From Eledone cirrhosa (Eukaryota), in the NCBI GenBank assembly GCA_964016885.1, contig OZ024742.1, positions 324,818,001 to 324,882,000 on the forward strand: a stretch of 64,000 nt of DNA, read 5' to 3'. The first letter of the stretch is position 1, and each line of letters starts with the position of its first letter. A program made the translations under genes and the position numbers. The notes below the pieces were generated by a model, which was not told where the DNA came from, searched no databases, and was given only the letters and a program-made list of their open reading frames with translations. This document shows positions 6,645 through 53,205 of the stretch, piece by piece.

Positions 6645-6941
<297 letters not shown>

Positions 6942-10671: not shown

Positions 10672-11861
10672 CAGGGTGCGGACGGTATTTGAGGACACAT
10701 GTATTTTTAGTCATTTTATTTGACTAATTTTTATTGAACTTCCATTTCAGAAAATAACAATGAAAATAACTATGCTTACTAATGAAATGAAAAGGCATGT
10801 TGTGATTGTGGCTTTGAAGGCTAAGCATGGGGTTTTAGAAATTTCTCGTTTTCTGAAAGTTGCAAGATCTTTTGTCCACAAGATTCGGTGTGAGTTAGAG
10901 AAAGAAGATGGAAGCGTATTACCTGTATCAAAACGTAAAAAACATTCCAAACGCTCTGATTCTATCAGGACACCTGAATTTATTCAGGAAGTTAAGCAAA
11001 ACATTGATGACAATCCAGGAAAATCAATGAGGTCAATTTCAAAAACGTTTGGTCTCAGAAAAAGCAATCAGAAATGTTGTGCATGAAGACATCAGATACA
11101 AAGCTAACGTGACGAGGAGAGGTCAATTCATGTCAGAAAACACGAAAGAAAAGCGTTTAATCAGATCCAAAAGACTTTTAAACAAACTTAAAAATCCATC
11201 AGAAGATGGTGTGATTTGGTTTTGCTCAGATAAGAAAAACTTTGACCAGGACCACAAAACTAACAGAAGAAATGACAGATGGCTATGTGCAGACCCTTCT
11301 GCAAGTGTCATTGTTTTGGGTGTTTTAGCAACCTCAGGGTGAATGCTGCTGCGTATATTGAGGTTGTGGAAAATTTTGTTAAGCCTTGGATCAACAGTGT
11401 AAGCAATGGAAGGCCTTAGGTCTTTCAACAAGATACTGCACCATTACACAAGGCACAATTGACACAAGAATGGATGACTGACAACTTGCATGATCACATC
11501 ACCCGCAACATTTGGCCTCCTAATTCTCCAGGTCTCAATCCACTGGACTACTATGTATGGAACATCGTTAAGAAAAATGTCATTGAACACCCCTATAGCA
11601 CCAAAGATACTTTGAAAGCCGTCATAATTCGAGTCATGTCCAATATGAACAAGGATCACTTAATCCGAACTTGCAAACGATTTCGACCCCGTGTAGAGGC
11701 AGTTATTGATGCTTATGGTGGTTTTATTGAATTAAATTATTACATTGATAATTTAGCTTTATGTTTATGTTATTTTTATAAGAATACGGATTTTTTCTGT
11801 TATTATATAAGCGTTTTTTTTTTAAACCATAAATCTGTCCTCAAATACCGTCCGCACACTC
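10672..11861 (+). mobile_element. Tc1/mariner DNA transposon, DD37D (maT-type), defective
   Basis: 26-bp TIRs at 10672-10697 and 11836-11861 (2 mismatches), with TA on both sides. Frameshifted transposase 10760-11740 contains IWFCSD and FQQD-x37-D (WPPNSPGLNPLD). Confidence 0.92.
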
Positions 11862-12340
11862 TATATTTGTATTTTTTATCCGATATAATTTTAACTTAAT
11901 TACTTTAGCTATTTTCAAAATAACTGATAAGTCAAAGGTTGCTTCCCTTGATCCTCAATTCACGTAAGGGAACCAAATGTGTAAATAATTGGTCTACAGG
12001 CGGAAATTTAAAGCCATAATTATTTCCTCCCTTGTTTCCAAAATGAAACTCTGCGCTGTTTGGAGCAAAGATTGTCGGTGGAAATTACTTTGCCTTTCAT
12101 AAATTTGTCACGAGGCCCGATGACAAGTTTTTAAAAACTGTCTCCTCCGATATACAGTGGTAGCATTAGCTAGACCACTAAACCAAGGGGAGCACATACA
12201 TGTCAATTGTATGAAACTTTGTTTATATTAAATAAGTTCTCTTGCAACAAATTGAGCCCTATTTTCCTTGATCTTTCATCTATGGATTCCGCGCAGCCCC
12301 TCTCTCTCCCTCTTTCTCTCTCTCTCCACACACACACACC

Positions 12341-13893: not shown

Positions 13894-13898
<5 letters not shown>

Positions 13899-14012
13899 AG
13901 ATTTGAATGGATACAGTTTAGTTGAAAGGAATTTATTGACACGTGTTTCTATAACAGTTACATAACCTGAAAACAGCTGCTATCTACAAAAGTGTATTCA
14001 TGTATTAAAGTG

Positions 14013-14087
<75 letters not shown>

Positions 14088-14805
14088 GTATATACAGATG
14101 TGTATGTATATGTATGTGTGTACACATAGACTAGAGTATGTATGTATATATGTGTGTGTCTATACGTGTGTATATAAAGATAAGTTGAGTATGAAAATGT
14201 ATACACATGAACGCGTATGTATGTACATGAATACATGAATACATGTGTGTATGTATATATGTATGCATGTGTATATGTATGTAAGTATGAATATGTGAAT
14301 GTGAGTATATGTATTTTGTAGAGGTGTGCAAATATATTTGAGTGTGAATGCGTGGGTGACAGGATACGTACACTTGAAAGAAAAATTTAAGTCTGAATGT
14401 CAATTAAGTGCAAACACAAAACCAACCACGCATATCTTTACTATCTCTAATCCTTCTATAAATTTAGAAAAATAACCAATAATATATTCTATAAAAATGT
14501 CAAAACAACAGATGAGAATCTAATTACTCACTGCCACCAAAAATTCTCACTGCTATCAACAAACCACTCCCTCAACTATTCTTCTAACAACTTCACCCCT
14601 CCCTCCTAATATTCTCTATAAAAACCAAATAGGTCCTCAGTAATATTATTCTGATGAAATGACTGTAAATAATAACATTGAAATATTGAATGTCTGCATA
14701 ACTAAAACTTTGTAGATAGCAGCTGTTTTCAGGTTATGTAACTGTTATAGAAACACGTGTCAATAAATTTCTTTCAACTAAACTGTATCCATTCAAATCT
14801 TTCTA
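13894..14805. repeat. Inverted repeat, 97-bp arms, about 720-bp spacer
   Basis: 13894-13990 is the reverse complement of 14709-14805 (about 1 mismatch). The locus is bounded by (TA)n. Confidence 0.9.
14646..14766 (+). ncRNA. Type I hammerhead motif with long stem II
   Basis: ttatt-CTGATGA(14651-14657)-92 nt-GAAA(14750-14753)-palindromic ACACGTGT-GUC site(14759-14761)-aataa. The base of stem II (aatgactgt/actgttata) pairs imperfectly. Confidence 0.7.
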
Positions 14806-14913
14806 TTTTTCTCCGGATTACTTTTGGAACTACAACTGTAACCGTCGAGCAAACTCTATGTGAGCTGTCAATCTACTGTGTGTAATATTTATATTACAAT
14901 ACAACGGAAAATA

Positions 14914-15021
<108 letters not shown>

Positions 15022-15030
15022 TTTATTTTA

Positions 15031-15300
15031 TAGAAGGAGCTTCTACAGGACTAGTACTGTTTCATTCAGATGAAATCTTCAGGAAGCTGGGTGTCATATT
15101 AAGTTCTGGTATTTATACATTTAGGTAGTGATTAGGGAGGGGTGGTGGAAGGGGGGGATGGTATTTAGGTACACAGGACCACTTCATGGCACAGTCTTAC
15201 CACTACCTAAATGTATAAATACCAGAACTTAATATGAAACCCAGCTTCCTGAAGATTTCATCTGAATGAAACAGTACTAGTCTTGTAGAAGCTCCTTCTA
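15031..15300. ncRNA. Fold-back with two opposite-strand HHRs (family A): 15038-15088 (-) and 15243-15293 (+)
   Basis: Arms 15031-15130 and 15201-15300. agcttc-CTGAAGA(15249-15255)-tttc atct gaat-GAAA(15268-15271)-cag..GTA(15285-15287)-gaagct, with a perfect 6-bp stem I. Confidence 0.82.
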
Positions 15301-15349
15301 CAAAATAACATTTTGTTTACTCTGCCTTGTATTGAGTACCGGGACCTAC

Positions 15350-15401
<52 letters not shown>

Positions 15402-15580
15402 GTAATAATAATAAATTTGAAGACTAAAATACAAAGAGGGCTCGATAAGGATAAATATATATCAATATATTAATATATATATATATATTAATATGTAGGA
15501 GGTGAGTTTTATTGTAGTACAATAAAGCAATGCAGATATCGGATAAGAAGCACTCTACAGTTTGTGGGACTGGAGTATGC

Positions 15581-15918
15581 ATAATATAAGATCAAAAGAT
15601 GGTTAAAGGAGTTCCATATATTTTATTATGCGCATTTCAAAAACAAACATCATCAAGCAATAATATTTGTGTTTTCATCAGATAAAACAGGAGAACATGA
15701 TATGAAGGCTAAAAAACACTTGTGGATAGTGCAGTTTTAAATCAACATATATGTTGATTTAAAACTGCACTATCCACAAGTGTTTTTTAGCCTTCATATC
15801 ATGTTCAACTGTTTTATCTGATGAAAACACAAATATTATTGCTTGATGATGTTTGTTTTTGAAATGCGCATAATAAAATATATGGAACTCCTTTAACCAT
15901 CTTTTGATCTTATATTAT
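15581..15918. ncRNA. Spacerless 338-bp palindrome with two HHRs: 15621-15687 (-) and 15812-15878 (+)
   Basis: Centre at 15749/15750. ttttat-CTGATGA(15818-15824)-36-nt stem II-GAAA(15861-15864)-palindromic ATGCGCAT-A-ataaaa. Confidence 0.85.
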
Positions 15919-27709: not shown

Positions 27710-28270
27710 ATGTGCATGTGTGTGTTTCATAGAAATACAAATGTACACACAAATAAAAATATATGTGCATTTATATGTCATATATTACAAAAATGCACAT
27801 TATTTTCAGGAGAGATTATTTCTGACTGTTTTCGCTGATGATAAGTGACGACCCCAACACTCGCAATATGCACAATATCTAACTTTCTTAGGATGCCATA
27901 TATTGAGAAATATTTACTTCACCAATACTTTAATTCCTGATAAATTAAATTGCCTTATGTCAGAGCTTATCTGAATTTTCTCAGCGTTTGCAAATAGGAA
28001 CTTACGATATCAAATTATATTTTTGGTCAATAAAAATAGGTGATACCGTTATCTGAGAAATACGAGGTTCAACTCCTCGTAGCGGTCGATGGCAACCTCC
28101 CTTTCTCTCACTTATTGTCTTAATCACATTTTATATGTTATATTATAGTATATCGGCGAATGAACATACCACTCTTTATATTATATATATACATATATAT
28201 ATATCAAGTAAGTATGTTTTGAAACAGTGAGCGAGTTTGAAATTAGAAAATATATAGCTTTCACCGTATT

Positions 28271-28426
28271 TTTAACTAGAGGAATTTCAGCTTGATAACG
28301 GGGTTTAGAACCCTCAGATAAATGGAAAAAGATGAGTATTGACGTACATGTACGTCAATACTCATCTTTTTCCATTTATCTGAGGGTTCTAAACCCCGTT
28401 ATCAAGCTAAAATTCCTTTAGTTAAA
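28271..28426. repeat. Spacerless 156-bp palindrome
   Basis: Centre GACGTACATGTACGTC at 28348/28349, with 2 mismatches. No canonical HHR core recognised. Confidence 0.92.
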
Positions 28427-28732
28427 TATATATATATATTGAAAGAGTGAAGAATAACATGATCAACAGTACAAAAAAGGGTTTTATTTACAGTCTTAAC
28501 AATTGATTCACTGATTAAGTTGTCTAAAAATTGCTGAACACTTGGAGCTCTACCACTCAATTTTAAATAAGTTGTCAGCTTAACCAGATCATCGGAGAAA
28601 TATATATATATACATACACACACAAACGCGCGCGCACACACACACAAACGCGCGCGCACACACACACGCACACATATATATATCTATATATATAAAACAA
28701 AGAAGGTGTGATAAGATACCACGTGCGTAATT

Positions 28733-28850
28733 GAAAAGAGTTAGGACCCGGACGGCTGAGCCCCGGCCGTTTCGACAGCTAGATCTATCAGTTCAGATCT
28801 AGCTCTCAAATCGGCCGTAGCTCAGCCGTCTGGGTCCTGACTCTTTTTCT
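28733..28850. repeat. Fold-back of family C (also at 6128-6190 and 19612-19677) with an HHR 3' half
   Basis: Minus strand reads CTGATAG-atctagctgtc-GAAA-cggc cggggctca gcc-GTC. Stem III and the GUC site are good, the core is imperfect, and stem I was not found. Confidence 0.7.
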
Positions 28851-28956: not shown

Positions 28957-29035
<79 letters not shown>

Positions 29036-29089
29036 CGTTTCTGAATTTGTTTAGCAAGATTCTTTATCTGAAATCGTGTGTTGAAACCG

Positions 29090-29609
29090 ATATTGTTATA
29101 CTTTGGGAGGGTCATGTTGCCAATAAGAAACACACGCACCAGTTGCTTTCACTTCAATTTAATTTAATATATATTTATAAATTTACAAATTTATAAATTT
29201 CTGGTTGGTTGGTTGGTTCCACAACCAGATAGTTGTTTATATATATATAGTCATAGTTCTTTCGTCACACACTCTGTGACCTCTTCAGTGACTGGGGATT
29301 TCTTTCTTCGTTTCTGTGCCTTTCCTTTCTTCTATCCTACGCCATTTTGTTTGTGTGCAAAATGGCGTAGGATAGAAGAAAGGAAAGGCACAGAAACGAA
29401 GAAAGAAATCCCCAGTCACTGAAGAGGTCACAGAGTGTGTGACGAAAGAACTATGACTATATATATATAAACAACTATCTGGTTGTGGAACCAACCAACC
29501 AACCAGAAATTTATAAATTTGTAAATTTATAAATATATATTAAATTAAATTGAAGTGAAAGCAACTGGTGCGTGTGTTTCTTATTGGCAACATGACCCTC
29601 CCAAAGTAT

Positions 29610-29617
<8 letters not shown>
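29090..29617. ncRNA. 528-bp palindrome with two HHRs: 29249-29293 (-) and 29414-29458 (+)
   Basis: 260-bp arms with no mismatch seen and an 8-nt loop at 29350-29357. agtca-CTGAAGA(29419-29425)-g gtcaca gagtg tgtgac-GAAA(29444-29447)-gaa-CTA-tgact. Confidence 0.85.
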
Positions 29618-29843: not shown

Positions 29844-30920
29844 ATTACGTTAGCATTGTGCGGATTATTTACTTCTACTGTTTTTACAATTCATTTGAAA
29901 ATGGAGGGGAATAGGATTCATTACCGTCATTTGATGCTCTCTTATTTCTGGAAAGGAGTAACATGCTGCACAAACAGCGAACAAGATATATGTTGTTTAT
30001 GGAGATAGTGCCATAGATGGTTATACTGTTAGCATGTCTTTCGCTAGGTTTAGAGCCGGAACCTTCGACCTCGAAGACCGTGCACATTATGGCAGGTCTA
30101 TAGTTGTTGATAATGACCAAAAAGAGACTTTAATCGAATATAATCCAGGTAAAACAACGCTAGACATCGCAGAGATACTTCACATATCTCATATAAGCGT
30201 TAAAAGGTATTTGAAAACACTTGAATCTGTGCATCGCTATAATGTTTGGGTGCTCCATAATTTAACGGAAAACAATTTAATAGAGCGCATTGCCATCTGC
30301 AATTATCTTCTCAAACGAAACCAATCCATTTCTGAAACGAATGATCACGAGTGATGAAACATTGATTATTTACGACAATGGAGCGTGTAAGAGAACGCAG
30401 AGAAAACCAAATGAACCAACTTCAACCATTTTAAACGCCGGCCAGTATCCGAAGAAGGTAATGCTTTCTATCATGAGACCCTTTCAGGAAATCAGACGTT
30501 AAATTCGGACTGAATATTTTTGTTTAGACCGATTAAAGGAGGCAATCGATGAATTCGGTGTGGTCATACATGAGGATAATATTAAACCACATGTATCTTT
30601 GCAGACCTGCAGAAATTGGTACAGCTTGTCCTACCACACCCAGAGTATACACTTGGCTTCGGATTATCATCTATTTCGATGCCTTCAACACATTCTATAT
30701 GGGAAGAACTACGATTATTTAGAAGACTGCAAAATCCAGCAAGACCAGTTAATGACGCCAAAACATGCCGAGTTTTGGTTGGATGGCATCATGACGTTGC
30801 TTGAAAGATAGTGGAATAAAGTGGAAAAAAACGTGGTTGAATAAAGCTATGTACATCTATTTAAATATTGGTAATGGATTTCACTTAAAAAACGGTATGA
30901 ACTTTTCTTTCAACCCAATA
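29844..30920 (+). mobile_element. Decayed mariner DNA transposon
   Basis: RFRAGTFDLED, YNVWVLHNLTE, FLKRMITSDE, HEDNIKPH, LASDYHLF. The 3' TIR-like end is ..CAACCCAATA (30920); the 5' TIR is degenerate. Confidence 0.85.
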
Positions 30921-32739: not shown

Positions 32740-33330
32740 TTTAATTAGGTTTATAGTATTTAACTGTTTTTCGTATACGGTGATTACAAACTATAATCAG
32801 TCCTGTCTTTTATTCAATAAATCGTCCTTAGATTTAGTAATTTCCAAGATCTCCCCTGAACATAACATGCATTCCCTCCTGTTCCCAAAATATGGAGTTC
32901 TTTGTAGAATGGTGTTCCACGACAGCTTGAAATCTATTTTTTTCTTTTTATAGTTATTTACTGCTTCAGCTAAATATGTGGTGTTAGCTAGTTTAGTATT
33001 GTTAAAACTACTAGAGTGTGCGTAAAATCTTTTCTTAAATGTGTTTGATGTAGATCCTATATATGTTTTGTTGGAGTCTGTAGTAGACACAGTGCATTTA
33101 TATATTACATTATTAATCAAACAGTTGCCATTTAAGGGGAAAATGCTTCTAATTCTGCAATTACAACCATACGCAAGATGGTTGTTGGGGGTACCTTTAC
33201 CATTCGCATTAATCCTTGAGGTATTCCTATTGTAATTAATGTTAGCGGGAGAATGAATATTGCTTTGTGGGTGGTTTAGTGCTAGGGTTGTATTGAGATT
33301 GTGTTATGTTGTTTTTGTGTTGGTAATTTG
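32740..33330 (-). pseudogene. Penelope-like GIY-YIG 3' fragment
   Basis: GCNCRI..PLNGNCLINNVIYKC..TYIGSTSNTFKKRFYAH..CMLCSGE..LLNKR is the same motif series as at 17593-18110. 5'-truncated at (TA)n. Confidence 0.85.
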
Positions 33331-33552: not shown

Positions 33553-33636
33553 ACCTTCTGACGAGAATCTTTCTTTGCAACGAAGGCCGTATGGTCTCCG
33601 TTTTATTTTTGGGATTCGAAACCGATCGGTAAAGGT
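33553..33636 (+). ncRNA. Type I hammerhead ribozyme, copy 1
   Basis: acctt-CTGACGA(33558-33564)-gaatctt..gggattc-GAAA(33618-33621)-palindromic ACCGATCGGT-GUA site(33629-33631)-aaggt. Confidence 0.88.
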
Positions 33637-34035: not shown

Positions 34036-34119
34036 ACCTTCTGACGAGAATCTTTCTTTGCAACGAAGGCCGTATGGTCTCCGTTTTATTTTTGGGATTC
34101 GAAACCGATCGGTAAAGGT
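34036..34119 (+). ncRNA. Type I hammerhead ribozyme, copy 2
   Basis: Identical to copy 1. CTGACGA 34041-34047, GAAA 34101-34104, GTA 34112-34114. Confidence 0.88.
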
Positions 34120-35508: not shown

Positions 35509-35552
<44 letters not shown>

Positions 35553-35597
35553 TAAACAAATAATGAATAAACAATTCCTTATATTAAACAAAAAAAG

Positions 35598-35751
35598 TTC
35601 ATTATTTAACGATCGTTTCTAGGATATATATGTGTTAGAGTTGGCATGCATATTCAACAGATCTATGTACAAAATTATACAAAATTATACAAACTATCAA
35701 GATTAAATATACATACCAACACATATATACGCCGTCTTCAGAAATAATGAA
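35598..35751 (-). ncRNA. Type I HHR with 115-nt stem II (left arm)
   Basis: Mirror of 41531-41684, with TCTTCAG at 35735-35741. Confidence 0.75.
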
Positions 35752-36401
35752 ATATATTTATTGATAATAACAACAATTCAAACTTTCAGGTCCGTTTGGG
35801 AACAAAATTGACCAATGAAAATACAAAAGGTTTAATGCCGTTCGGTGTGTGTATATACATGTAATAACCCTTACACATATTTTACAAAAATGTATGCACA
35901 ACCTGTATACTCATACAAAAAGGATGGATGCAAATACAAAATTTCAAGGTTAATGTCTCTGTAAGTTTATAATGCACAGATAAGATGCGTATAGATACAT
36001 AAATATGAAATAAGTGTATACACATATTTTCACACTAACACATATCCGTACAATCACACATACACGCGCGTATATGCATAAACATACACATAAACTACAA
36101 ACATACAAACACACACACACCACCACTCACATATATATATGTGGATATAAAATCCTAAGCACATGGATATTAATTCACTCACATAAGCACTGGCACACAC
36201 ATTTAGATAAAGATACAGAAATTAGGTGGGAGGGGGGGGGAGAGGTCAATATTCAACGGTTTGGGCTGCCTGCTTAATATAGATGTATCTATAAACTAAG
36301 AAAATAAAAAATAAAAAATAATAATAATAAATAATAAATAAACATTAAAAAGGAAAGAAAAGAAAAAGAAAAAAGAAAAAAGAAAAAAGAAATATATCAA
36401 G

Positions 36402-36432
<31 letters not shown>

Positions 36433-36646
36433 CCATATATATATATCTATATATATATATACATACATATATATATACATACACATACATACACACACAC
36501 ACACACATATACATATACACATACACATATACAAACACATACATACATATACACACATCCACACTTAGAACATAACATACACACACATATATAAACATAT
36601 ACATATACACACATAGATACAAATACACACATACATATAAATACAC

Positions 36647-36729
<83 letters not shown>

Positions 36730-37026
36730 CATACACTCATACATAGGCATATAATCACACATACTATATAGACACACATATATATACACACATACATACA
36801 CATATACCTACACTTACATACATATATACATACAGATATACACATACATACCTATATATACACACAAATACATACAGACATATATACATACATACAGACA
36901 AATACTTACGCATCTATATATCGGTATATACATACAAACACCACTACACTCTCACACAACTCAGACATACAAAGAAAAAGGTATATACCCATACACATAT
37001 ACATATACAAATAGAGAAACATATAC

Positions 37027-37085
<59 letters not shown>

Positions 37086-37302
37086 CATACATATACATAT
37101 ACACATACACACATACACATACAAACACATACATACATGTACACACACATAGATATATATACACACACATACACACATACACATACATATATAGTCATAC
37201 ACACACATACACCTACACGAACATACACATACACATATACAAAGATATATATACACACACACACCCACATACACACACACACATATATATATAAAAAAAT
37301 AA

Positions 37303-37361
<59 letters not shown>

Positions 37362-37994
37362 CATACACATACATACACACATACATAGACATATATGTAC
37401 ATACATACATATACATAGATACATACACATACATACATACATATATATATACACACATAGACATATACATACATACACACACAACATACATACACACATA
37501 TATACTCATACATAGAATTAGATATATAAACATACATACATACGCACTTACATATACTCATATATACCAATACAAACGCATCCATATATGCGTATATACA
37601 TAGAAACACCACTACACCCTCACCCAATTCAGATATACAAAGAAAAAGGCATATACATATACATATATACACGCATCAATAGAGATATATATACACACAT
37701 ATATATATATATATATATATGTGTGTACACACATACACTTATATACATATACCCACACACACATACAACCATAAATACACATACAAACACCCACATATAT
37801 AAATATATACACATATATATATATATACACACACATAAAAGACAGACATGCACACATATATATTTTTTTACACATATATATACACATATATATACATATA
37901 CACACCCTCACATATACACATACACATAAGTTATATTATAATAATAAATAATATACATACATACATACACACACATATATATATATACATATAC

Positions 37995-38047
<53 letters not shown>

Positions 38048-39255
38048 CAGACATACACATACACATACATATACACACATGCATATATACACACATATAC
38101 ACATACATACACACATATATATATATACACACAATCATACATTCTTATTTGCATGCGCATATATGTATTTTTATATTCAGATATAAATACCCAAATATAT
38201 ATACACCTACCTACATATATATTCATACATACACGCTTATAAACACAGATGATAATAGTATGGGGGAAAGGGGGGGGTTGGAGAAGGGGATTATAGTAAA
38301 TATATGATGTTTCAAGAAACATAGAATATTATCTGTATCTAGATCCAATGTATGTTTATACATAGTATCAGTGATAGGAAATACAATAAACAAGGAATAA
38401 GGCAAAATTTATGCAATTCAAAAAAAATAAGTATACCATTAATTATATGTTAACTAAACTAAAGATAGTTAACATATTGATTTCTAAGGTGTAAATTAGT
38501 TAGGTTTATAATATTTGAAGCAGAATTTTGAAGTTAAATAGTAGTAGAGTATTAATTATAGTATAACTAAATTAAAGTTAATAACTTTATGGTATCAATA
38601 TTAGGAAATGAATTTAGTAATAGGGAAAAAACAAATAAAGTATTACATCGGTAGTAGAATATAAAATATAGGTTAATTAAATTAAAAATTATATATTTAT
38701 TTCTATAGTATATGTTAATTAGGTATATAATAAATAAAACAGATATTGTATTTTATCAATAGCAGAATATAATTATATGCAAATAGAAATCAAAATTAAT
38801 ACATATACATATACATATACATACACATATATATATACACATATATATACATATATATACATATATACACATATACATACGCACATACATACACATACAC
38901 ATATACATATACATATTTTTATATGTGTATATATATATATATGTATATGTATATATATATATGTGTGTGTATGTATGTATGTATATGTGTGTGTGTGTAT
39001 ATATATGTATGTCTCTCTATTTATATGTATATCTTCGTATCTATGTGGATATATGTGTGTGTGTGCATGTATACACATATATGTGTTTATGTGTTTATGT
39101 GTGTATGTATATATATGTGTGTATGCACACACATGTATATGTGAATGTGTGTATGTGTGTGTGTGTATATGTATGTGTATATATGTATGTATATATATCT
39201 ATGTGTGTTTATATGTCTATATTCATATGTGTGTGTGTGTATATATATGTATATG

Positions 39256-39288
<33 letters not shown>

Positions 39289-39897
39289 GTATGTGTATAT
39301 ATATATATATTATTTATTATTATAATATAACTTATGTGTATGTGTATATGTGAGGGTGTGTATATGTATATATATGTGTATATATATGTGTAAAAAAATA
39401 TATATGTGTGCATGTCTGTCTTTTATGTGTGTGTATATATATATATATGTGTATATATTTATATATGTGGGTGTTTGTATGTGTATTTATGGTTGTATGT
39501 GTCTGTGGGTATATGTATATAAGTGTATGTGTGTACACACATATATATATATATATATATGTGTGTATATATATCTCTATTGATGCGTGTATATATGTAT
39601 ATGTATATGCCTTTTTCTTTGTATATCTGAATTGGGTGAGGGTGTAGTGGTGTTTCTATGTATATACGCATATATGGATGCGTTTGTATTGGTATATATG
39701 AGTATATGTAAGTGCGTATGTATGTATGTTTATATATCTAATTCTATGTATGAGTATATATGTGTGTATGTATGTTGTGTGTGTATGTATGTATATGTCT
39801 ATGTGTGTATATATATATGTATGTATGTATGTGTATGTATCTATGTATATGTATGTATGTACATATATGTCTATGTATGTGTGTATGTATGTGTATG

Positions 39898-39976
<79 letters not shown>

Positions 39977-40194
39977 TTATTTTTTTTTTATATATATGTG
40001 TGTGTGTGTATGTGGGTGTGTGTGTGTATATATATCTTTGTATATGTGTATGTGTATGTTCGTGTAGGTGTATGTGTGTGTATGACTATATATGTATGTG
40101 TATGTGTGTATGTGTGTGTATATATATCTATGTGTGTGTACATGTATGTATGTGTTTGTATGTGTATGTGTGTATGTGTATATGTATATGTATG

Positions 40195-40251
<57 letters not shown>

Positions 40252-40548
40252 GTATATGTTTCTCTATTTGTATATGTATATGTGTATGGATATATACCTT
40301 TTTCTTTGTATGTCTGAGTTGTGTGAGAGTGTAGTGGTGTTTGTATGTATATACCGATATATAGATGCGTAAGTATTTGTCTGTATGTATGTATATATGT
40401 CTGTATGTATTTGTGTGTATATATAGGTATGTATGTGTATATCTGTATGTATATATGTATGTAAGTGTAGGTATATGTGTATGTATGTGTGTATATATAT
40501 GTGTGTCTATATAGTATGTGTGATTATATGCCTATGTATGAGTGTATG

Positions 40549-40629
<81 letters not shown>

Positions 40630-40843
40630 GTGTATTTATATGTATGTGTGTATTTGTGTCTATGTGTGTATATGTATATGTTTATATATGTGTGTGTATG
40701 TTATGTTCTAAGTGTGGATGTGTGTATATGTATGTATGTGTTTGTATATGTGTATGTGTATATGTATATGTGTGTGTGTGTGTGTATGTATGTGTATGTA
40801 TATATATATGTATGTATATATATATATAGATATATATATATGG

Positions 40844-40874
<31 letters not shown>

Positions 40875-41530
40875 CTTGATATATTTCTTTTTTCTTTTTT
40901 CTTTTTTCTTTTTTCTTTTTCTTTTCTTTCCTTTTTAATGTTTATTTATTATTTATTATTATTATTTTTTATTTTTTATTTTCTTAGTTTATAGATACAT
41001 CTATATTAAGCAGGCAGCCCAAACCGTTGAATACTGACCTCTCCCCCCCCTCCCACCTAATTTCTGTATCTTTATCTAAATGTGTGTGCCAGTGTTTATG
41101 TGAGTGAATTAATATCCATGTGCTTAGGATTTTATATCCACATATATATATGTGAGTGGTGGTGTGTGTGTGTTTGTATGTTTGTAGTTTATGTGTATGT
41201 TTATGCATATACGCGCGTGTATGTGTGATTGTACGGATATGTGTTAGTGTGAAAATATGTGTATACACTTATTTCATATTTATGTATCTATACGCATCTT
41301 ATCTGTGCATTATAAACTTACAGAGACATTAACCTTGAAATTTTGTATTTGCATCCATCCTTTTTGTATGAGTATACAGGTTGTGCATACATTTTTGTAA
41401 AATATGTGTAAGGGTTATTACATGTATATACACACACCGAACGGCATTAAACCTTTTGTATTTTCATTGGTCAATTTTGTTCCCAAACGGACCTGAAAGT
41501 TTGAATTGTTGTTATTATCAATAAATATAT

Positions 41531-41684
41531 TTCATTATTTCTGAAGACGGCGTATATATGTGTTGGTATGTATATTTAATCTTGATAGTTTGTATAATTT
41601 TGTATAATTTTGTACATAGATCTGTTGAATATGCATGCCAACTCTAACACATATATATCCTAGAAACGATCGTTAAATAATGAA
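41531..41684 (+). ncRNA. Type I HHR with 115-nt stem II (right arm)
   Basis: ttcattattt-CTGAAGA(41541-41547)-..tatatatgtgttgg..ctaacacatatata..-GAAA(41663-41666)-cgatc-GTT-aaataatgaa, with a perfect 10-bp stem I. Confidence 0.78.
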
Positions 41685-41872
41685 CTTTTTTTGTTTAATA
41701 TAAGGAATTGTTTATTCATTATTTGTTTAATATTTTATCTTGACTCTGTATACCGTTTATCTTTCACCGAAAGTGATTTTTCATTACATTTCTTCTTTCC
41801 ATGATATCCGGAATACATTGAGTTCTTCATACGGATTGGACACTACCGTAAACTCTTGGTAGATTTATCTAC

Positions 41873-41954
<82 letters not shown>

Positions 41955-49802: not shown

Positions 49803-50953
49803 ACAATGATATTAAATAAATGGAAACTATATTTATACAACCATATTTATTCTATTATATATATTTCAAGGGTACCAACACTTTGGTACGCACTCATCAG
49901 ATAAAATACAAAGTTTGTTTTATAAATAGTGACATAACGAAGAAAAAATACCTTAACGGTTCCGTTTTTTCCTGGATAGTGAAGGAAAAGAGAAGAAATG
50001 TCAGATATTTCAAATTATTAAGATGAGTATGCAAATGAGGTTGAGGTATAGGGCTGAAAAAACGTTATTTTTAGACGCTATGCAGAATTTAAATAATTAG
50101 GATATATGTATGTATAAGTAGGAAGAAGAAAAAAAGAAAGAAGAGCTTGCATTTACGTTAATTTAAAAGGAATTAACAATTTGCGGGAATGGTGGAATAT
50201 GATTCCAGAATTTAAAATTTATTTAGCTATGTTATGAGTTATCATATTGTATATATAATCAATTAGATTATATGAAGAATTATGGTTGTAAGTAAATTTT
50301 ATCTTATTACATTACAATAGGTTGTAAGTATATAAATAACTATATAGATTAATAATTATGCATGTATAAGTATTATAGAAATAGAAATAAGTTACAATTA
50401 TTAGTTGTTTACATTTCTCATGAGTTACGAAGGAAGTTGATTATGCATTTTACATTAAAAAAAACTCGCAGTTCAAGTTGTAAGAGGAGATCAATTTGTA
50501 GATTCAAATATTTTGTTCCAACATTGAAAATCTTTTCAGAATATTGTTAATTTAGCGAAGTTATATAGTTTATCATACATATTATATTATAATATAATAT
50601 TTATGTTTACTCGATTTAAAAGGAAAAGATAACTCAAATCTTGTTTGCTAACCGCTAAATTTGATGAATGATTTACTCAGACAATATATAGAGAGAATTA
50701 TATACCTATACCTCAACCTTATTTGCATACTCATCTTAATAATTTGAAATATCTGACTTTTCTTCTCTTTTCCTTCACTATCCATGAAAAACTTGAACCG
50801 TTAAGGTATTTTTTCATGGTTATGTGAATATTTCTAAAACAAACTTTGTATTTTATCTGATGAGTGCGTACCAAAGTTTTGGTACCCTTGAAATATATAT
50901 AATAGAATAAATATGGTTTTATAAATATAGTTTCCATTTATTTAATATCATTG
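49803..50953. ncRNA. Inverted 250-bp arms with two family B HHRs: 49848-49908 (-) and 50849-50909 (+)
   Basis: Arms 49803-50052 and 50705-50953. tattttat-CTGATGA(50857-50863)-gtgc gtaccaa..ttggtac cctt-GAAA(50890-50893)-tatatat-A-atagaata. Confidence 0.82.
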
Positions 50954-52243: not shown

Positions 52244-52244
<1 letters not shown>

Positions 52245-52610
52245 ATAAATTATACAATTATCAAAGTTGTGTTCAAATCATTTAATAGCTGACAGTCGTT
52301 TCTTCCAAACTCTCATTTGGAGTCATCGGAGCATTATCAATGTTTGTACATCTAATTAACCTCCTATTCAACTGAACAATAATATAGATGTGACATATAT
52401 TTTATAAAATATATGTCACATACATTCCACCCTGTAAATACAAAACTGTTGCTCACAACATCAATATATATGTATCTATATTATTGTTCAGTTGTTAATT
52501 ACATGTACAAACATTGACAATGCTCCGATGACCCCAAATGAGAGTTTGGAAGAAAGAATTGTCAGCTATTAAATGATTTGAACACAACTTTGATAATTGT
52601 ATACTTTATT
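52244..52610. ncRNA. Fold-back with two variant HHR motifs (CCGATGA core): 52285-52334 (-) and 52520-52569 (+)
   Basis: Arms about 52244-52389 and 52474-52610. gct-CCGATGA-ctccaaat gaga gtttggaa-GAAA-cgact-GTC-agc. Confidence 0.65.
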
Positions 52611-52742
52611 TATTTTCCTGCTCTGTAAAACAACTGATGTTCATACATTGAGCTATTTCTCTTACTGGTAATAAGGTAGTAGGAAATTACTGACCTCCCT
52701 GTTTATGGTTGTTTATACTATATACATAACTATAAATAGTAT

Positions 52743-52836
<94 letters not shown>

Positions 52837-52915
52837 GTGTCTGATGGTAGCTAAGATGCTTCCATAGACGGTATGCCGGTTGAGCACTCTATGCTCTTAC
52901 AGAGCAGAGTATGAT

Positions 52916-53188
52916 AGAATAGAAAACGAAAAATCAGTGATGCATCTGAACTCAATTTATTGTGTGTTACAATAGTTTCGCCGGCGGACAGCTCAAGACG
53001 CGATCATTGTGTGGATCTGTCTGTGAGAGAATATGCTCCGAAATTATTAGACGTATCCGTCGAACCTGCGTGCCCAGAATCAGACAGATCCACACAATGA
53101 TCGCGTCTCGAGCTGTCCGTTGGTGAAACAATTCTAACACACAATAAATTGAGATCAGATGTATTACTGACTTTTCGTTTTCTATTCT
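52916..53188. repeat. Fold-back, 108-bp arms, with a possible decayed HHR
   Basis: 52916-53023 versus 53081-53188, about 10 mismatches. The minus strand has CTAATAA...GAAACTATTGTA. Confidence 0.85.
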
Positions 53189-53205
53189 CTCTCTCTATAT
53201 ACACA

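What the first reader, a model, noticed from the sequence alone, without database searches (positions are those of the whole stretch)
15031..15918. Fold-back cassettes place one ribozyme on each strand, pointing outward
Seen: at 15031-15300 and 15581-15918 (also 29090-29617, 35544-41738, 49803-50953, 52244-52610) the left arm always has the HHR on the - strand and the right arm on the + strand. This fixed polarity in six loci argues for one mechanism. Established: PLE insertions often have an inverted pLTR at the truncated 5' end. Inference: these are extreme truncation or snap-back products. A transcript crossing in either direction meets the antisense arm first and then an HHR, so hairpin formation would compete with ribozyme folding and might neutralise cleavage of host pre-mRNA.
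Basis: partly seen in the sequence, partly recalled or inferred. Interest (0 to 1): 0.75.

Follow-up and report, generated by a model that had tools for sequence, protein, structure and literature searches.

The report
Penelope fold-backs copied from both ends
These mirror-image repeats with outward-facing self-cutting RNAs are real, very common insertions of a known jumping-gene class (Penelope-like elements), and their fixed orientation is likely a by-product of both cut DNA ends copying the element's RNA, not a device to protect host genes.

Summary
Five of the six cassettes carry type I hammerheads pointing outward; the sixth has a variant core. The polarity is genome-wide: 36 outward vs 0 inward partners within 1.5 kb in a 1.18-Mb sample, and 68 vs 4 neighbouring pairs in three families. 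Full-length parents encode RT plus a C-terminal endonuclease (Hydra-clade motifs for A and B). Head-to-head pLTRs with a one-sided tail are already described. Either arm can be the longer one, which argues against simple snap-back and for two priming events. In family B, many arms stop 69-70 nt upstream of the ribozyme. An extra G precedes that site in 1,809 copies (A: 469), as expected if a capped RNA is copied to its end. Cassette B's perfect centre is the predicted join of two such run-off copies. Ribozyme neutralisation is untested and not needed to explain the polarity. This scan noted the same architecture and the twin-priming idea before, in this and other genomes; my one look-up for the extra G found nothing.

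The parts
15029..15194 (-). Cassette A left arm: tail-less, the longer arm (owns the spacer 15131-15194); ends in (TA)n
15044..15082 (-). Type I hammerhead, family A (CUGAAGA, U-U at 10.1/11.1, stem III CAG/CUG around palindromic ACUAGU, GUA cleavage site)
15195..15352 (+). Cassette A right arm with tail (about 15301-15352, internally shortened against the family), ends in (TA)n
15249..15287 (+). Type I hammerhead, family A
15353..15491 (.). (TA)n runs holding a short end fragment of another repeat family (about 15395-15470; 33 hits in fetched loci)
15492..15580 (-).
15581..15750 (-). Cassette B left arm (pLTR of a Hydra-type PLE family; 11,715 exact 30-mer copies in the genome)
15627..15681 (-). 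Type I hammerhead, family B (palindromic stem III UGCGCA, AUA cleavage site)
15749..15750 (.). Fold-back centre: 2-nt AT overlap of the two arms at the inferred RNA start (+1 A, 69 nt upstream of CUGA)
15749..15918 (+). Cassette B right arm, tail-less, ends at the internal site TTATATTAT next to (TA)n
15818..15872 (+). Type I hammerhead, family B
13896..14916 (.). Third, asymmetric head-to-head cassette next to A: short tail-less left arm 13896-13990 (-), long right arm with HHR 14651-14761 (+) and tail
29033..29617 (.). Cassette C (family with a 1329-aa RT-EN ORF): tail on the left 29033-29089; HHRs 29254-29288 (-) and 29419-29453 (+), weak stem III
35544..41873 (.). Cassette D: 6.3-kb fold-back; long-stem-II HHRs 35608-35741 (-) and 41541-41674 (+); tail on the right 41739-41873
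49803..50953 (.). Cassette E shared arms: HHRs 49856-49900 (-) and 50857-50901 (+); tail continues to the right of 50953
52244..52700 (.). Cassette F: variant CCGAUGA-core hammerhead-like motifs 52291-52329 (-) and 52525-52563 (+); tail on the right

Best explanation
The cassettes are head-to-head insertions of endonuclease-bearing Penelope-like retrotransposons, likely made when both strands of a cut (TA)n site each prime reverse transcription of the element's sense RNA and the two growing cDNA ends are then joined. Shown: each cassette is two copies of the element's pLTR end in (TA)n; exactly one carries the tail; full-length relatives place an RT-endonuclease ORF upstream of the same ribozyme. 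Inferred: one strand primes at the tail end and the other at the internal site (the two start sites seen in vitro for an anole PLE). Each cDNA grows toward the RNA's 5' end and stops on its own, and the two 3' ends anneal by a few bases. That forces both ribozymes to point outward. In short family B cassettes, including the one in this window, both cDNAs likely ran off the capped 5' end of an uncleaved RNA, sometimes copying the cap as an extra G. The cassettes are predicted to be dead by-products, and their polarity needs no selection.
For: Parents: L289 has an 821-aa frame with YRDD, DKT, CxCX5C and YFGST, an HHR at its 3' end and an inverted pLTR at its 5' end; L302 (A) and L326 (C, three in tandem) are similar. 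Polarity: 68 minus-plus vs 4 plus-minus among neighbours within 7 kb in the first 100 listed copies of each of three families; 36 vs 0 within 1.5 kb in the even sample. Tail on exactly one arm in 68 of 71 cassettes, both in 1, neither in 2. Spacer on the tail-less arm in 19 and on the tail arm in 20 of 39 resolved of 71; re-check against full-length references gave 16 and 18 of 44, 10 unresolved. Family B 5' ends: 18 of 64 unselected copies at -70 to -72 on the L007 ruler, none at the cleavage site +55. Letter before +1 genome-wide: G 1,809, A 469, templated TTTC 3,538; G three bases further in: 99. Centres ATAT (6 of 26) and ATAT-C/G-ATAT (6 of 26) are the products expected from two run-off ends. 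In vitro: both strands cut and extended, two RT start sites bounding the tail, uncleaved RNA used (PMC11167929). Untemplated G as a cap signature in L1 and SVA (PMC4859970).
Against: All mechanism is read from dead DNA copies; no RNA was seen. Arms mostly share minority alleles (B: 91 shared vs 41 differences, 4 of them at polymorphic sites; C: 51 vs 4), which self-copying or later gene conversion also predicts. Family A does not show this sharing (5 vs 43). Of 30 G-bearing junctions the script called 19 untemplated, but 4 of these can take the G from the partner arm on inspection, leaving 15. The G/A comparison lacks a matched A count at the control position. A sharp 5' peak was clear only in family B. 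Four of 30 B loci (2 on inspection) and 4 of 30 C loci showed no inverted partner. Target-site duplications were mostly unreadable in (TA)n (15 weak candidates of 71).
Confidence: 0.72

Rival explanations
1. Self-priming: one strand (a nascent cDNA that snaps back, or an antisense RNA as proposed by Arkhipova et al. 2013) folds on itself and is copied into the second arm.
For: Arms share subfamily alleles and a few private ones (8 private shared alleles in 71 cassettes). Junctions show short inverted microhomology. PMC3846280 proposes antisense self-priming for the head-to-head palindromes.
Against: A copy cannot gain a tail that its template lacks, yet the short arm has the tail and the long arm lacks it in 16-19 cassettes. 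Zero-loop centres would need 0-2-nt hairpin loops. The extra G lies on the sense strand of both tail arms (10) and tail-less arms (15), sometimes on both arms of one cassette.
Confidence: 0.15
2. The outward polarity is kept by selection because the antisense arm silences the ribozyme in host pre-mRNA.
For: The hairpin is predicted to dominate. A preprint reports tandem retrozymes depleted in Xenopus introns (10.64898/2026.07.22.740005).
Against: The polarity follows from priming chemistry; most insertions already have two arms. 37 of 86 HHRs have no inverted HHR within their 10-kb stretch and persist. Monomers are not predicted to fold the active three-helix form. Published single PLE HHRs show little or no cleavage. 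It could still be a side effect; no gene annotation was available to test it.
Confidence: 0.08
3. The palindromes are assembly or library artefacts, or MITE-like units that move as a whole.
For: Near-perfect palindromes are a known artefact type (recalled). No contig piece in the read comparison spanned the whole of cassette B.
Against: The arms are asymmetric in a fixed, family-specific way and differ by point changes. Raw RAD-seq reads of two later runs of the same species label show (TA)n at both the tail end and the internal end, and head-to-head joints such as 15513 to 15827. Junctions differ from locus to locus.
Confidence: 0.05

Closest known systems
EN+ Penelope-like element insertion unit: pLTR, adjacent inverted 5'-truncated copy, one-sided tail (PMC3846280 passages; PMC8557442 Fig. 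2 legend)
   Same: Head-to-head arrangement described as the most frequent one, palindrome at the junction, tail on one inverted pLTR, partial tandems.
   Different: Tails here are longer (about 50-135 nt vs 30-40). Many insertions consist of the two ends only. The evidence here favours sense-template double priming over the antisense self-priming proposed there.
Hydra clade of C-terminal EN+ PLEs (PMC8557442, section 11 read whole)
   Same: Families A and B: DKT, RW motif, CxCX5C linker, CxxC and CxH around the conserved E and N, canonical HHR, (TA)n targets.
   Different: Units of about 3.3-4 kb or more (family B tandem spacings 3.3 and 3.9 kb) rather than <3 kb; RWT/RWR for RWK; no phylogeny was built. 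Family C has a CX4CxxC linker instead (Neptune-like).
Dual opposite-strand minimal HHRs of PLEs (PMC4209133, part 1 and passages)
   Same: HHR pairs 100-700 bp apart on opposite strands in truncated PLEs; weak or palindromic helix III.
   Different: That paper did not state the polarity or the tail asymmetry in the passages seen.
Poseidon PAc in vitro reaction (PMC11167929, main text read)
   Same: Both strands cut and extended; two RT start sites bound the tail; AT-rich targets; HHR cleavage not needed.
   Different: Different clade; the paper does not address how the inverted junction forms.
L1 twin priming and cap-derived 5' G (PMC4859970 passages)
   Same: Two target-primed cDNAs; untemplated G at full-length 5' ends.
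   Different: L1 twin priming inverts non-overlapping parts of one RNA (recalled); here the same 3' segment is duplicated.

Membership tests
EN+ Penelope-like elements | Single ORF with RT and C-terminal GIY-YIG-type endonuclease in full-length relatives | tested here: met
   Motifs in L289, L302 and L326. Pfam and PDB searches did not name these proteins; a 38%-identical window fragment hit GIY-YIG at E 3e-4, below cutoff.
EN+ Penelope-like elements | Hammerhead in the pLTR, on the ORF's strand | tested here: met
EN+ Penelope-like elements | Partial tandems and an inverted 5' copy | tested here: met
   L293, L294, L317, L326 tandems; L289 inverted pLTR
EN+ Penelope-like elements | Tail at one end only | tested here: met
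   68 of 71 cassettes
EN+ Penelope-like elements | Target-site duplication | tested here: inconclusive
   Flanks are (TA)n; 15 mostly low-complexity candidates of 71
Hydra clade (families A, B) | DKT, RWK-like motif, CxCX5C linker, CxxC and CxH motifs, (TA)n targets | tested here: met
   against the definition
Hydra clade (families A, B) | Placement in the Hydra clade by RT phylogeny | not tested
   No reference Hydra sequences were fetched
Type I hammerhead ribozyme | Conserved core, three stems, UH site | tested here: met
   A, B, C by descriptor; D, E by eye; F has U4C and a short stem I
Type I hammerhead ribozyme | Self-cleavage | not testable with these tools
   Monomer MFE folds lack the three-helix junction
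Non-LTR retrozyme | Non-coding tandem monomers, each with an HHR | tested here: not met
   Families A, B and C have coding parents; cassettes A and B are inverted pairs, not arrays
MITE / DNA fold-back transposon | Symmetric terminal inverted repeats and a fixed internal structure across copies | tested here: not met
   Ends asymmetric; junctions and spacers differ per locus

The most novel reading that the evidence does not exclude
Thousands of family B fold-backs are fossils of a PLE integration step not yet shown: a (probably dimeric) RT copies a capped, uncleaved sense RNA from both target strands at two fixed start sites, runs off and reverse-transcribes the cap, and joins the two cDNA 3' ends. 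This would replace antisense self-priming as the origin of inverted pLTRs and map the promoter from DNA alone. As a side product it would seed this genome with tens of thousands of perfect hairpins for ADAR and RNAi.
Probability: 0.6. Interest if true: 0.55.

Novelty: new member of a known kind. Interest (0 to 1): 0.33.

Why it matters
How Penelope-like elements build their tandem and inverted ends is named as an open task in PMC8557442. The tail asymmetry, the free choice of the longer arm and the extra G give concrete predictions for the existing in vitro system (PMC11167929). At about 73 hammerheads per Mb, with about half in fold-backs, these insertions could also be a large source of perfect dsRNA. 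PMC5625713 reports unusually many dsRNA-forming loci and heavy hyper-editing in an octopus, and heavy editing of Penelope in a lizard; whether this genome's cassettes are transcribed was not shown. The polarity itself is ordinary.

Tried and rejected
1) An apparent rule that the two arms of family B differ at two bases just 5' of stem I was rejected as an ascertainment artefact. The DNA search skips common words and so picked copies sharing my query's rare variant; Illumina data show almost only the common allele.
2) Rfam gave no hammerhead hit, only generic hairpin matches.
3) Pfam and PDB did not name the full-length ORFs.
4) I first read families A and B as Neptune-type; their motifs fit Hydra.
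5) No A-to-G excess between arms was seen in the 71 cassettes, so no ADAR scar here.
6) No RNA holder was listed.
7) A direct read-level tally of strand-changing joints on a single-arm reference was not obtained, so read support rests alone.
8) The partner check for family A stopped with a script error and is not counted.
9) The inward hairpin at 6645-6791 with CTGATGAAGGAAA failed the HHR descriptor and was set aside.
10) The unique-cassette count (34 vs 4) over-counts by rounding; HHR-level counts are used instead.

Full report
Observation. The window is AT-rich animal DNA full of (TA)n and (CA)n runs; it lies in G000, a 3.0-Gb assembly. Earlier scan notes call the genome octopus-type; I did not test that. 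A structural descriptor finds complete type I hammerheads in both arms of cassettes A (15044-15082 minus, 15249-15287 plus), B (15627-15681 minus, 15818-15872 plus) and C. D and E have full motifs read by eye, and F has a CCGAUGA core shared by its relatives. In 118 evenly spaced 10-kb stretches (2 of 120 asked for did not exist) the descriptor found 86 hammerheads, against 0 in the reversed sequence. The nearest inverted homologous partner was outward for 45, inward for 4 (all more than 4 kb away) and absent for 37; within 1.5 kb it was 36 to 0. Exact motifs occur 11,715 (B), 693 (A) and 7,919 (C) times in the genome. Among the first 100 listed copies of each, neighbours within 7 kb were minus-plus 68 times and plus-minus 4 times; 3 of the 4 lie between adjacent cassettes.

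What it is. Long family members are Penelope-like elements. L289 has an 821-aa RT-endonuclease frame followed by the family B hammerhead, with an inverted pLTR at its 5' end. L302 is the counterpart for A, and L326 holds three tandem hammerheads of C with a 1329-aa frame between each pair. A and B show DKT, CxCX5C, CxxC and CxH motifs as defined for the Hydra clade; C has a CX4CxxC linker. Pfam and PDB did not name these proteins, so the assignment rests on motifs. The 71 were chosen as minus-plus pairs from the lists; they include the window's three and one segment present three times. Raw reads from two later runs show family B ending in (TA)n at both the tail end and the internal end, and show head-to-head joints. 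No record spanned this exact locus.

How it forms. Target-primed reverse transcription grows from the RNA's 3' part toward its 5' end, so two cDNAs primed on the two sides of one cut must meet head to head with their ribozymes facing out (established chemistry plus inference). The anole PLE protein cuts and extends both strands and starts at two sites that bound the tail (PMC11167929). My data separate this from self-copying. The unpaired spacer belongs to the tail-less arm in 19 and to the tail arm in 20 of 39 resolved cassettes, or 16 and 18 of 44 examined against full-length references. Cassette A itself has the spacer on its tail-less arm. A snap-back copy cannot gain a tail that its template lacks. 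The bias differs by family (B mostly tail-less, C mostly tail). Against this reading, arms share minority alleles far more often than they differ at polymorphic sites in B and C; this fits one RNA or one source locus, but also self-copying or conversion.

The centre of cassette B. Family B 5' ends pile up about 70 nt upstream of the ribozyme (18 of 64 unselected copies) and none falls at the cleavage site, so the templates were likely uncleaved. The site reads TTTC-A-TATG, like an initiator (recalled). Genome-wide, the letter before it is G in 1,809 copies and A in 469; 3,538 copies continue upstream as templated, and a G three bases further in occurs 99 times. Of 30 G-bearing junctions, 19 were scored untemplated by script and 15 after inspection. 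An extra 5' G is the accepted sign of cap copying in L1 and SVA (PMC4859970), and the Penelope start site lies in the pLTR (PMC8557442). Two cDNAs ending at this base have self-complementary ATAT ends. A 4-nt overlap gives the commonest perfect centre (6 of 26), a 2-nt overlap gives the window's, and one extra G gives another 6 of 26 (that set includes G-selected loci).

The neutralisation idea. A read-through RNA is predicted to form the long hairpin, so the ribozyme would be masked. But single arms are not predicted to adopt the active fold, and published PLE hammerheads cleave little alone. Most insertions have two arms from the start: 21 of 30 B loci and 16 of 30 C loci show an inverted piece, 5 and 10 are undetermined, and 4 and 4 show none. 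Polarity therefore needs no selection. No gene annotation or RNA data were available, so a side benefit is neither shown nor excluded.

Known versus new. Head-to-head as the usual arrangement, junction palindromes and the one-sided tail are in PMC3846280 and PMC8557442; opposite-strand hammerhead pairs are in PMC4209133. Paper searches (listings only) returned nothing on an untemplated G or on twin priming in PLEs, but the library lacks most subscription papers and I read no supplements. What I saw of each paper: PMC11167929, parts 1-2 of 4 (the main text); PMC8557442, passages and sections 10-11; PMC3846280, passages; PMC4209133, part 1 of 4 and passages; bioRxiv 2026.07.22.740005, part 1 of 5 and passages; PMC4859970 and PMC5625713, passages. 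This scan holds 153 notes with the same key words in at least 26 genomes, and several in this genome already propose priming from both ends; one look-up for the cap G found none. Verdict: real, known architecture, with a modest new mechanistic clue.

Noticed in passing
window:13896-16110: A nest of at least five element ends in linked (TA)n runs: three fold-backs, a short end fragment at about 15395-15470 and another repeat end from about 15985 (21 hits in fetched loci).
   Followed up: partly
window:12379-12557: Inward-facing pair of family A-related fragments sharing a short TA run; neither piece is a complete hammerhead.
   Followed up: partly
window:33426-34302: Tandem of two 483-bp units, each with an intact hammerhead (33558-33631, 34041-34114, plus strand), pointing away from a PLE endonuclease fragment at 32797-33303 (minus).
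   Followed up: partly
window:328-588; L098, L101, L110, L138: Very common non-coding family of about 440-470-bp tandem units with a CUAG stem III hammerhead, also found as head-to-head fold-backs; retrozyme-like.
   Followed up: no
window:52291-52563: Family with a conserved CCGA(A/U)GA core (U4C) and a short stem I; activity unknown.
   Followed up: partly
window:17790-19347: Hydra-like PLE remnant on the minus strand, interrupted by microsatellites.
   Followed up: partly
window:43498-48645: Nearly whole LINE (ORF1, AP endonuclease, RT) in several frames; Tc1/mariner-like fragments at 10724-11899 and 29962-30354 (labels recalled from motifs).
   Followed up: no
L311 (G000:C1:118474552-118478235): One family A fold-back present three times in a tandem duplication of about 1.06 kb.
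   Followed up: partly
window:903-1100, 6645-6791, 28267-28430, 28734-28847, 52913-53191: Further hairpin repeats; the first is an old outward family A-related pair, the others carry no hammerhead by the descriptor.
   Followed up: no
Family B words are held by runs labelled with 15 other organisms, so the family or its relatives may be shared among species; only X4 was laid.
   Followed up: partly
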